A model generated the notes under the pieces. It ran no database searches, had not been told where the DNA came from, and saw only the letters and a list, made by a program, of their open reading frames with translations. A program made the position numbers and the translations under genes. Below are positions 15,431 to 18,398 of a stretch of 64,000 bases of DNA, piece after piece. Source of the stretch: Cetorhinus maximus. Its lineage: Eukaryota. The stretch is from the NCBI RefSeq assembly GCF_964194155.1, contig NC_135901.1, positions 34,162,001 to 34,226,000 of the forward strand, written 5' to 3'. Within the stretch, counting starts at the first letter, position 1. Every line of letters begins with the position of its first letter.

Positions 15431-15971
15431 TGATGTTCAAAAGAACACAAGAAATTGGAGCAGGGGTAGACCACCCGACCTCTTGAGCCTGCTCCACCAT
15501 TGAATGATCTTCCATGTCCACTCGACTCTACCTTTATGCTCAAGATGGAAATGAATACATTCGATTCAAGTTTCAATCTGGAAAATGCACAAACAAGGTG
15601 CACATTAATTGCAAAATTCACTTCCTCAATGCTTGGAAATCACGTTAACTGTACTTTCCACTGGCCTCGTGCTGAAATCTAGTCATTACGTGGTTGTTTA
15701 AAAATAAGAGGTCACCCCTTTAAAATTGAGGTGAGGCGAATTATTTACTCTCAGAGTATCGTGAGTATTTGGAACTCTCTTCCTGAAAAGGTGGTGGAAG
15801 CAGAGTCTTTGAATATTTTTAAGGCAGAGGTGGGTAGATTCTTGATAAGCAAGGGGGTGACAGGTTATCGGGGTCGGCAGGATGCAGATTTGTGGTTACT
15901 ATCAGATCAGCCATGAACTTATTAAATGGCAGAGGATGCTTGAGGGGCCGAATGGCCTCCTCTTGCTCCTT

Positions 15972-16226
15972 ACAGAGATAAAAACAAAAAACTACTGTGG
16001 ATGCTGGAAATCCAAAACAAAAACAGAATTACCTGGAAAAACTCAGCAGGTCTGGCAGCATCGGCGGAGAAGAAAAGAGTTGACGTTTCGAGTCCTCATG
16101 ACCCTTCAGCAGAACTTCAACAGAAGTTCTGCTGAAGAGTCATGAGGACTCGAAACGTCAACTCTTTTCTTCTCCGCCGATGCTGCCAGACCTGCTGAGT
16201 TTTTCCAGGTAATTCTGTTTTTGTTC
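15972..16226. mobile_element. Penelope-derived foldback element with 103-bp arms and hammerhead motifs, inserted in a CR1 tail; 13-bp TSD
   Basis: Arms 16016-16118 and 16123-16225 (1 mismatch), loop AACA; TSD CCTCTTGCTCCTT at 15959-15971 and 16227-16239. Confidence 0.88.
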
Positions 16227-16429
16227 CCTCTTGCTCCTTGTTCGTATGCTCATATTTTCGTATGTTACTGACAAGATGGAATTTAAAGGTTCTGTGTATG
16301 GGAAGAAAAATCATTTGTTCACATCGCCTGCTGAGATTCCAGTGAGTTCACATCTAAATGTGAAGGTTGTTCTGCGGTTATTTACACCCGGGACAGAACT
16401 ATGGCAGAGGGCCCATGAGCTTTGTTTGT

Positions 16430-16945
16430 CATATCAATTGAATTAATAATATTATATCTTGGCCCTGGGCTCCAATCATCATCGGATCACAAAACATAAT
16501 TTTCTGTTTAAAAAAATTGGCCTTCAATGGCGGCGGGGCTACCCAGCATTGAAAGAGGAGCAGAATGTGCCCTATCCTCACAGCAGCTCTCTGCTCATGC
16601 GCATTACCGTGTGAGCTTGGAGCATGCGCGTTGCGGTCTGTTTCATGAGCATGCGCAGTGCTGGTCTGTGACTGAAGCTGCTCAGGGCGTGTGAAAGAAT
16701 GCCGAGTGGAGCAAACTAACAGAGTTAGTGGGTGTGTGAGGAGGAATGAAGCCAGCGGAGTGGACAGGGAGGCTCCATAAAGACACAGTGCAGGCCGATG
16801 ACCACAAATAACAAGGTACCGGTCTTGTGTTTGCAGAGAATGGGCCGTAAAAGTCTGGATTTCTCCCTTCGCCAGGCCCGGGGTAACGGCCGCCATCTTT
16901 ATAGGGGGCAATGTGCAGCAGGGCGCATGCGCGGTCATCCTGGGT
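16430..16945 (+). promoter_or_regulatory. Class I ZNF promoter plus YY1-NRF1 unit
   Basis: CCAATCATCATCGGATC, TACCCAGCATT (16540), GCATGCGC repeats at 16597-16660, and GGCCGCCATCTT...GCGCATGCGC at 16888-16932; upstream of the ZNF at 17724. Confidence 0.7.
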
Positions 16946-17723
16946 CCTGGCAACTCAAACCCAGAGAAATGTTTGTCTTTTCTCAATTTATAATCTTAGA
17001 CTGACAGTAATGGCTTTTAAATTCCGTTTATAGCGGGGTTGTAGAACTGAACCCAGCCAGAGCGGAGGGAGATAGAAAACTGGGAGAGGAACAAAGAAAT
17101 GGTGGAGATTGCATGATGGGTTTGGATTTCATCACAGAGAGGAGAGAGAGTTTGTGGCACTGTGATTTACAGCTTGGGGTGGGGGAATGGGAGACGAGAG
17201 AAAGAAATATTCAATAGCAAGTGGAATTGTCAATTATTAATTTCCATGCTGGACTGACAGTGATAACTTTTGTTAACCCTTTTTACAGCTTATTAGAAGG
17301 GAGGGATTTTCAGATGCCAAACATCATGAAGTATTAAGATTTGTAGATGGGACACTCAAACCAAACATCACACGAAGATTGCACAGTCACTCGATTCATC
17401 AGGACCTGAATATCATCGGCCTTTGAATGTGGAAGGAGAAAGTTTTGACTGTTCTTTCTGTGGGAAAAGATTTCAAACATCAGTGTGACTGGGAAAGCAC
17501 TGAGACACACACACACACCTGAGTGAGAGTGTTCCAGTGAACTCACCGCAGAAAGAGCTTTAACCAGTTACAGAGCCTGAAAAAAACATTGCAGCGTTCA
17601 CAGTGGGGAGAAACTGTACATGTGTTCTGTGTGTGGACAAGAAAATGTGAGAACAGTGTGAAGCTATTCAGTCATCCACCCCAGCTGGAAATTCATTGGC
17701 GCACTCACATTGGGGCCAGCACC

Positions 17724-18398
17724 ATGGTGAAACCATGGAAATGTGGGGACTGTGGGAAAGGATTCAATTATCCATCTCTGCTGAGAAACCATCGACGTAT
17801 TCACACTGGAGAGAAGCCGTTCACCTGCTCCGTGTGTGGTAAGGGATTCACTCAGTCATCCACTCTGCTGACACATCAGCGAGGTCACACCGGGGAGAGG
17901 CCTTTCAGCTGCACTTACTGTGGTAAGAGGTTCAGGTCTTCATCCCACCTGAGTGGACACAAGCGATTTCATACTGGGGAGAGGCCATTTGCCTGCTCTG
18001 TGTGTGGGAAGGGATTCACTGTGTCCTCCAACCTGCTAAAACACCAGCAAATTCACACGGAGGAGAGGCCGTTCAGCTGCAGTTCCTGCGGAAAGAGGTT
18101 CAGGTATTCCTCCGACCTCACTGCACACCAGCGAGTTCACACTGGGGAGAAACCATTCACCTGCTCTGTGTGTGCGAAGGGATTCACTCAGTTAGCCAGC
18201 CTTAAGTCACACCAGCAAATTCACACTGGGGAGAAGCCATTCAGCTGCACTTCCTGTGGAAAGAGGTTCAGGTCTCCATCTAATCTTAAAGTACACAAGC
18301 GAGTTCACACTGGAGAGAGGCCATTCACCTGCACTGTGTGTGGGAAGGGATTCACTCAGTCAGCCAACCTGCTGTCACACCAGCGAATTCACAAGTGA
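17724..18398 (+). CDS. C2H2 zinc-finger protein, 8 fingers, 224 aa
   Basis: ACCATGG start, [10 protein letters not shown]...HQRIHK*; TGEKP/TGERP/TEERP linkers; probable splice acceptor TTTTTACAG ending at 17289. Confidence 0.85.
   Translation: MVKPWKCGDCGKGFNYPSLLRNHRRIHTGEKPFTCSVCGKGFTQSSTLLTHQRGHTGERPFSCTYCGKRFRSSSHLSGHKRFHTGERPFACSVCGKGFTVSSNLLKHQQIHTEERPFSCSSCGKRFRYSSDLTAHQRVHTGEKPFTCSVCAKGFTQLASLKSHQQIHTGEKPFSCTSCGKRFRSPSNLKVHKRVHTGERPFTCTVCGKGFTQSANLLSHQRIHK

What the first reader, a model, noticed from the sequence alone, without database searches (positions are those of the whole stretch)
15972..16226. Foldback retro-element: 103-bp near-perfect palindrome with a minimal hammerhead ribozyme fold on both strands
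Seen: 16125-16163 reads AGTT-CTGCTGA-A-GAGTC-ATGAG-GACTC-GAAA-C-GTC-AACT, i.e. stem I (AGTT/AACT), a core with A6 changed to C, stem II (GAGTC/GACTC), GAAA, a vestigial palindromic stem III (ACGT) and a GUC cleavage triplet. The mirror copy is in the left arm. Established: Penelope-like elements carry minimal type I hammerheads with a very short stem III that are thought to cleave as dimers. Inference: a young element (1 mismatch between arms, perfect TSD) about 200 bp upstream of a ZNF promoter that would give a long dsRNA hairpin or cruciform, with possible self-cleavage in either direction.
Basis: partly seen in the sequence, partly recalled or inferred. Interest (0 to 1): 0.7.

Follow-up and report, generated by a model that had tools for sequence, protein, structure and literature searches.

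The report
Back-to-back Penelope retrotransposon stub insertion
This 255-base mirror-image insert is real but common: it is two back-to-back copies of the front end of an abundant Penelope-type jumping gene, likely made when both cut DNA ends copied the same RNA up to its likely start, and its two ribozyme motifs are predicted to be locked in the long hairpin rather than cutting.

Summary
In detail: 103-bp arms with one mismatch, a 13-bp TSD, and a minimal hammerhead at 16125-16163 with its mirror copy. Nine paralogous ZNF units show the empty site. It is not a new foldback element. The arm is the pseudo-LTR of a 3.3-kb Penelope-like element (RT plus C-terminal GIY-YIG, Neptune/Nematis-type linker) with intact-ORF copies in this genome. 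There are 13,747 exact hammerhead motifs and at least 1,585 equally tight palindromes with varied centres. Head-to-head insertion with a one-sided tail is a published PLE layout. Inferred mechanism: both nicked strands prime on the same source RNA at two start sites and run to its 5' end. Both arms here stop at an Inr-like A 29 nt after a TATA-like box, a family hotspot, and either arm can be the longer one (12 vs 12 of 36), which argues against simple fold-back. Core A6 is lost family-wide (37 of 13,747 keep it). Self-cleavage at this locus is unlikely: hammerhead stems have about zero probability inside the hairpin, and each strand holds one sense motif. The scan noted the same layout before, in this genome and in other shark-like DNA.

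The parts
15959..15971 (+). Left target-site duplication, 13 bp (14 with one mismatch at 15958)
   Evidence: empty site in 9 of 11 paralogues
15972..16116 (-). Tailed arm: 145-nt copy of the PLE pseudo-LTR from the putative +1 A (16116) to the distal 3' end
   Evidence: 98.6% and 96.6% identical over 145 nt to the 5' pLTRs of long copies L301 and L306
15972..16015 (-). One-sided tail, 44 nt, absent from the right arm
   Evidence: one tailed plus one tail-less arm in 36 of 41 pairs
16078..16116 (-). Minimal hammerhead motif, copy 1 (C6 core; stem II with the family's G-U pair)
16117..16124 (.). 8-nt junction scar; reads as a near-repeat of the arm's terminal 11-nt unit in its U6 form, likely a templated insertion
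   Evidence: sequence; centres vary between copies
16125..16225 (+). Tail-less arm: 101-nt copy from the putative +1 A (16125) to the proximal 3' end
16125..16163 (+). Minimal hammerhead motif, copy 2 (C6 at 16132, extra A at 16136, predicted cut after 16159)
   Evidence: architecture as in PMC4209133
16227..16239 (+). Right target-site duplication
15780..15971 (+). Target: 3' end of an older abundant repeat (recalled as a CR1-type LINE tail) that is part of the duplicated ZNF unit
   Evidence: 55 alignments reach this flank end, 4 of them to the locus itself; family name recalled
16526..16932 (.). Promoter-like region with YY1- and NRF1-type motifs; TSS not mapped
   Evidence: motif labels recalled
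17541..18398 (+). C2H2 zinc-finger open frame of the neighbouring gene

Best explanation
The insert is two head-to-head copies of the front end (pseudo-LTR) of an abundant Penelope-like retrotransposon, likely made in one insertion event in which both nicked DNA strands primed reverse transcription on the same source RNA, and its hammerheads are predicted to be inactive in this arrangement. Shown: the identity of the arms, the TSD and empty site, the one-tail layout, and the shared stop point. Inferred steps: (1) the GIY-YIG domain nicks both strands about 14 bp apart; (2) one end primes at the distal internal site (tailed arm), the other at the proximal site (tail-less arm); (3) both cDNAs run off the RNA 5' end at the Inr-like A, 29 nt after a TATA-like box that neither arm retains; (4) the two cDNA ends join through microhomology or short templated insertions, each probably templating the other's second strand. 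The product has no ORF and no upstream promoter, and is probably inert.
For: Parent: copies with a 99-100% identical arm continue into a GIY-YIG frame. Long copies are pLTR-ORF-pLTR of about 3.3 kb; 2 of 7 have uninterrupted 923- and 925-aa frames. P0002 hits RVT_1 above cutoff (30.5 vs 29.6 bits) and GIY-YIG below cutoff (E 0.0016), and shows DKG, YIDD, C-x4-CxxC and CxxC-before-YIG. Layout: 41 of 86 motif-selected insertions have an adjacent inverted arm, 36 of 41 with one tail. Stop point: 28 of 86 arms end within 8 nt upstream of C3, none at -9 to -16, including 8 of 43 arms without a partner (counted). TATA-Inr spacing recurs in 12 pLTRs from 7 of 8 long copies. Independent arms: tail-less arm longer in 12, tailed longer in 12, within 10 nt in 12 of 36, differences up to about 700 nt. 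Same source: 2.2 differences within insertions vs 4.8 between, and 10 shared doubleton variants vs 0.12 in shuffles, 40 pairs. Literature: both strands cut and extended, two internal RT starts that define the tail, hammerhead mutants still insert (PMC11167929). Ribozyme: stems at probability about 0 in the hairpin; A6C lowers Mg-dependent cleavage (PMC7151607; PMC3088659).
Against: The TSS is inferred from truncation pile-up and motifs only. The same spot is also a polypyrimidine-CAG (possible splice acceptor) and a short near-palindrome that favours joining. The cap-G signal is thin (G upstream in 5 of 7 partner-less stops at -3/-4). D. virilis Penelope has a TATA-less internal promoter (PMC2377424). 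Arm similarity could come from later gene conversion or a single active donor, and the 40 pairs include loci chosen for likeness to this copy. Two of 40 pairs differ at positions 6-7, and 5 of 41 break the one-tail rule. Copies starting at the predicted cut site are somewhat more common than at a control site (70 vs 40), so the family motif may cut occasionally. Paralogue L259 has a similar 13-14-nt duplication at this site without any element. Arm lengths were read within 1.5 kb flanks.
Confidence: 0.68

Rival explanations
1. Same PLE remnant, but the mirror arm arises by self-priming: one cDNA (or an antisense template, as proposed in PMC3846280) folds back at a short palindrome and copies itself.
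For: Arms of one insertion share rare variants. Junction ends also cluster at -27 to -44, near short self-complementary words (13 of 82 ends). The commonest tight centre has a one-base loop (12 of 50 listed). Self-priming is the published proposal.
Against: Fold-back of a tailed cDNA cannot give a tail-less arm that reaches further upstream, seen in 12 of 36 pairs, by up to 699 nt. Fold-back of a tail-less cDNA cannot create the tail. Antisense templates were not tested.
Confidence: 0.17
2. The stop point is a 3' splice acceptor or an RT barrier at the hammerhead's 5' edge, not the transcription start; the rest of the model stands.
For: A pyrimidine tract and CAG/TAG precede the motif. In D. 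virilis an intron end maps to the 5' end of helix I (PMC4209133).
Against: No constant upstream exon is seen in stopped copies. TATA- and Inr-like motifs sit at textbook spacing. Stops are spread over -5 to -2.
Confidence: 0.07
3. A non-autonomous palindromic mini-element (MITE- or retrozyme-like) that moves as a unit, using its two ribozymes.
For: At least 1,585 tight palindromes of similar size; 40 of 40 scored hits are full-length palindromes (biased by the query).
Against: 32 distinct centres in 40 copies, with the commonest centre in both orientations relative to the tail. Arm lengths form a continuum. Retrozymes are tandem, not inverted (10.64898/2026.07.22.740005).
Confidence: 0.04
4. 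The insert is an active self-cleaving or regulatory element for the ZNF gene.
For: It lies 300-700 bp from promoter-like motifs. C6 hammerheads keep low activity.
Against: Absent from 9 paralogous units. Hammerhead fold is out-competed by about 200 kcal/mol of hairpin, also in growing transcripts. No sign of selection on this copy.
Confidence: 0.04

Closest known systems
EN+ Penelope-like insertions with inverted pLTR, one-sided tail and TSD (Pen2a_Av, PMC3846280; general scheme in PMC8557442)
   Same: Head-to-head inverted 5'-truncated copy, tail on one side, TSD, TATA/Inr-like motifs in the pLTR.
   Different: Both arms are only 101-145 nt and stop at one point; thousands of copies; modal TSD 14 bp rather than 8-10.
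Neptune/Nematis-type PLEs (PMC8557442)
   Same: C-terminal GIY-YIG, CX2-5CxxC linker, CCHH-type cysteines, DKG motif in the parent ORF.
   Different: No tree was built; Neptune vs Nematis is not resolved by my tests.
Poseidon element of Anolis, PAc (PMC11167929)
   Same: Hammerhead in the pLTR, two 3' end clusters about 35 nt apart, T/A-rich ends.
   Different: Different clade; here the ORF's likely ATG lies downstream of the tail, not in stem II; core A6 is lost.
Minimal type I hammerheads of metazoan PLEs (PMC4209133)
   Same: Extra base after A9, G10.1-C11.1 pair, 4-bp stem I, palindromic vestigial stem III; pairs on opposite strands 100-700 bp apart were already noted.
   Different: Position 6 is U or C in 99.7% of exact motif copies; stem II is 5 bp.
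A6C hammerhead of phage Bcep176 (PMC7151607, PMC3088659)
   Same: Same core substitution.
   Different: A full monomeric ribozyme, not a dimer-dependent minimal one.
Non-LTR retrozymes (10.64898/2026.07.22.740005)
   Same: PLE-derived, ORF-less, type I hammerhead.
   Different: Tandem repeats; this insert is inverted and single.

Membership tests
EN+ Penelope-like element (parent family) | Single ORF with RT and C-terminal GIY-YIG endonuclease | tested here: met
   925-aa frame in L306; RVT_1 above cutoff, GIY-YIG E 0.0016 below cutoff. P0001 and a partial frame gave no Pfam hit; L300 gave a sub-cutoff RVT_1 only.
EN+ Penelope-like element (parent family) | Pseudo-LTRs from partial tandems, containing this sequence | tested here: met
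   The arm occurs at both ends of the ORF in 7 of 7 long copies.
EN+ Penelope-like element (parent family) | Inverted 5'-truncated copy, one-sided 30-40-nt tail, TSD | tested here: met
   41 of 86 inverted; 36 of 41 with one tail; TSD mode 14. Tail is 44 nt in this copy.
EN+ Penelope-like element (parent family) | RT groups with PLEs and telomerases in a phylogeny | not tested
   No named reference set was at hand; DKG motif seen.
Neptune/Nematis clades | CX2-5CxxC linker plus CCHH-type endonuclease | tested here: met
   C-x4-CxxC and CxxC between the GIY-like and YIG motifs (definition).
Neptune/Nematis clades | Placement in Neptune rather than Nematis | not tested
   No tree built.
Minimal type I hammerhead | Stem I, stem II, extra base after A9, palindromic vestigial stem III, NUH triplet | tested here: met
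   matches the traits in PMC4209133.
Minimal type I hammerhead | Canonical CUGANGA core | tested here: not met
   C6 here; A6 in 37 of 13,747. A6 is kept in older relatives: 7 of 8 below 80% identity vs 5 of 289 at 90% or more (the set includes 5 loci fetched for having A6).
Minimal type I hammerhead | Stems conserved by compensatory change | tested here: inconclusive
   95.8% of cells paired, 4 pairs with a two-sided change, each in one row. The 24 rows were picked by a descriptor that demands pairing, so the test is circular.
Minimal type I hammerhead | Self-cleavage, as a dimer | not testable with these tools
   Predicted blocked at this locus; family-level proxy 70 vs 40 is not decisive.
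Non-LTR retrozyme | Tandem units each with a hammerhead | tested here: not met
   Inverted pair only.
MITE-like unit transposon | Copies share one internal sequence | tested here: not met
   32 centres in 40 copies.

The most novel reading that the evidence does not exclude
Penelope-like elements make their inverted ends by priming from both nicked strands at two internal RNA sites; the two cDNAs, here run-off copies of the capped 5' leader, join and template each other's second strand. A lineage that replaced hammerhead A6 with U, then C, still spread to over 13,000 copies, so fast self-cleavage is dispensable for PLE mobility.
Probability: 0.5. Interest if true: 0.6.

Novelty: new member of a known kind. 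Interest (0 to 1): 0.33.

Why it matters
The locus itself is ordinary. The family is useful: how PLEs form inverted ends and tails is described as undefined (PMC8557442), and thousands of young, short insertions record the priming sites, the stop point and the joint. They favour two-ended priming over self-priming and point to the RNA start, both testable in the published in vitro system. The family-wide loss of A6 is a natural test of whether PLEs need their ribozyme.

Tried and rejected
Rfam: only sub-threshold miRNA hairpin hits, no hammerhead. DNA search with the 75-nt core returned nothing, since very common words are skipped. Sequencing runs: no RNA holder listed; contigs of relatives cannot show starts or expression; one contig begins at the right TSD with 8 unfitted letters, too few to call an empty site. 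Single-sequence structure model: pLDDT 33.6, unused. PDB sequence search and NCBIfam gave nothing useful; the Atlas did not hold the protein. Lunse et al. 2017 was not held. Cofolding two motifs did not give the dimer register, which nearest-neighbour folding is not expected to capture. Telomerase-like realignment at the RNA 5' end as a general rule: only 4 of 40 centres fit. Literature searches for shark PLE palindromes and for two-ended priming in PLEs found no such paper; subscription journals, Repbase and Dfam were not searched.

Full report
Observation. The inverted repeat is real: arms 16016-16118 and 16123-16225, 103 nt, one mismatch, folding z -28. A 13-bp duplication flanks 15972-16226. 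Nine of 11 paralogous ZNF units show the uninterrupted site, so the insert postdates those duplications. One further paralogue, L259, has a similar short duplication without an element, a caveat on the TSD. The hammerhead-like motif reads as stated at 16125-16163 and in mirror at 16078-16116. Rfam does not detect it and it has no folding signal alone. The window is a C2H2 ZNF cluster in a 4.0-Gb genome; 'shark-like' is my recollection of the repeat types plus the wording of earlier notes, not a tool result.

Identity. Searching with the long arm alone gave copies 99-100% identical, several continuing into a GIY-YIG frame that ends about 400 nt upstream of the motif. Seven long copies are pLTR-ORF-pLTR units of about 3.3 kb; two have uninterrupted frames of 923 and 925 aa. 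P0002 matches RVT_1 above cutoff and GIY-YIG below it and shows DKG, YIDD, a C-x4-CxxC linker and CxxC before YIG, the marks of Neptune/Nematis-type elements (PMC8557442). Two other frames gave no Pfam hit. The window's tailed arm is 96.6-98.6% identical to two of these pLTRs.

Abundance and layout. The exact motif occurs 13,747 times, and 1,585 places hold two motifs head-to-head within 30 nt; both are lower bounds. From the first 100 listed matches, I analysed 90 loci; 6 partner matches and the last 4 were not fetched, and 4 loci were dropped as second hits of one insertion, leaving 86. Of these, 43 or 41 (stricter) have an adjacent inverted arm within 1.5 kb. In 36 of 41, one arm has the tail and the other lacks it; 3 have two tails and 2 none. 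The longest shared flank word is 14 bp in 19 of 41. This layout is published (PMC3846280; PMC8557442), and opposite-strand motif pairs were noted in PMC4209133. Centres differ (32 types in 40), so the palindrome is not a unit element.

Stop point. With C3 as 0, 28 of 86 arms end at -8 to 0, none at -9 to -16 and 3 at -17; 8 of the 43 partner-less arms also stop there (counted). In long copies this spot reads as an Inr-like TCAGTT or TTAGTT whose A lies 29-30 nt after the start of a TATA-like box. Both arms of the window copy begin exactly at that A (16116 and 16125). I infer run-off at the RNA 5' end. Support from an extra G is thin (5 of 7 partner-less stops). A splice acceptor or a joining preference at this near-palindrome is not excluded, and D. 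virilis Penelope uses a TATA-less promoter (PMC2377424).

How the mirror is made. Arms of one insertion are closer to each other than to other copies: 2.2 vs 4.8 differences in 90 nt, 10 shared doubleton variants vs 0.12 in 2,000 shuffles, positions 6-7 alike in 38 of 40 (the set is enriched for copies like this one). So they share a source or were later homogenised. Either arm can reach further upstream: tail-less longer in 12, tailed longer in 12, within 10 nt in 12 of 36. Fold-back of one cDNA predicts that the tailed arm is never the shorter. Two priming events fit better, and agree with in vitro data on the anole element: both strands cut and extended, two internal RT starts bounding the tail (PMC11167929). 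Mutual second-strand templating is my inference.

The ribozyme. The architecture matches metazoan minimal hammerheads. Position 6 is A in only 37 of 13,747 copies; among the 86 it is U in 65 and C in 21. A prevails in the most diverged relatives (7 of 8 below 80% identity), so A6 was lost before the young expansion. A6C reduces but does not abolish activity in other hammerheads, and hammerhead mutants still insert in vitro. At this locus stems I and II have probability about 0 on both strands, and the hairpin zips as the right arm emerges. Each strand has one sense motif, while these motifs are thought to need a dimer (PMC6765202). Against a dead family motif: 70 copies break off at the predicted cut site vs 40 at a control 3 nt away. 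Of 30 examined, 6 are internal indel variants, 7 overlap the partner through 4 shared bases, and 17 start there, several with short microhomology. The control was not classified by script. This allows rare cleavage and proves nothing.

Context. The insert sits in an older repeat tail 300-700 bp before promoter-like motifs and 1.3 kb before the ZNF frame. Nothing tested here shows transcription across it or an effect on the gene.

Papers seen. PMC11167929 and PMC4209133: parts 1-2 of 4. 10.64898/2026.07.22.740005: part 1 of 5 and passages. PMC3846280, PMC8557442, PMC7151607, PMC6765202, PMC2377424, PMC3088659: passages. Lunse et al. 2017: nothing, known only through the review. No supplements were read; those of PMC4209133 and PMC11167929 may list position-6 variants or junction data.

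Earlier notes. My reading was written before the look-ups. The scan holds many like findings; they are not independent support. One note prompted the check.

Verdict. A new member of a known kind: identity as a PLE stub about 0.97, the two-ended run-off mechanism about 0.68 as stated, cleavage at this locus unlikely. Interest 0.33, carried by the family-level mechanism and the A6 loss rather than by this copy.

Noticed in passing
window 30275-30710: Head-to-head insertion of a sister subfamily (about 87% identical arm, U6 core, U17) with a short flanking duplication and longer arms.
   Followed up: partly
window 9697-9845: Short insertion of the same subfamily between 14-bp duplications, with an A-rich scrambled stretch in place of the left arm's body.
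   Followed up: no
window 12293-12401: Older relative (70% identity) that keeps a canonical A6 core.
   Followed up: partly
L259 (G000:C24:34258300-34259900): Paralogous ZNF unit with a 13-14-nt tandem duplication at the insertion site but no element.
   Followed up: partly
L262, L263, L273 (pLTR-ORF junction): A possible 86-nt GT-AG intron upstream of the likely ORF start would contain both 3' end clusters; if real, only unspliced RNA could be a template, which would bear on intron retention in PLEs. No RNA evidence.
   Followed up: no
L283/L284 (G000:C1:217258768-217262078), L285: Short tandem units made of the pLTR plus the first ~100 nt beyond the tail, resembling retrozyme-like repeats.
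   Followed up: no
L091:4879-6846: Insertion whose inverted part starts inside the ORF rather than at the pLTR end and overlaps the direct part by about 470 nt.
   Followed up: no
window 16889, 25781, 36462, 46143, 52059: The same promoter-like motif recurs through the ZNF cluster; the flank at 16240-16560 had 818 candidates, and the 40 scored lie mostly on this contig.
   Followed up: no
window 693-755: A 63-bp self-complementary stretch, 92% symmetric.
   Followed up: no
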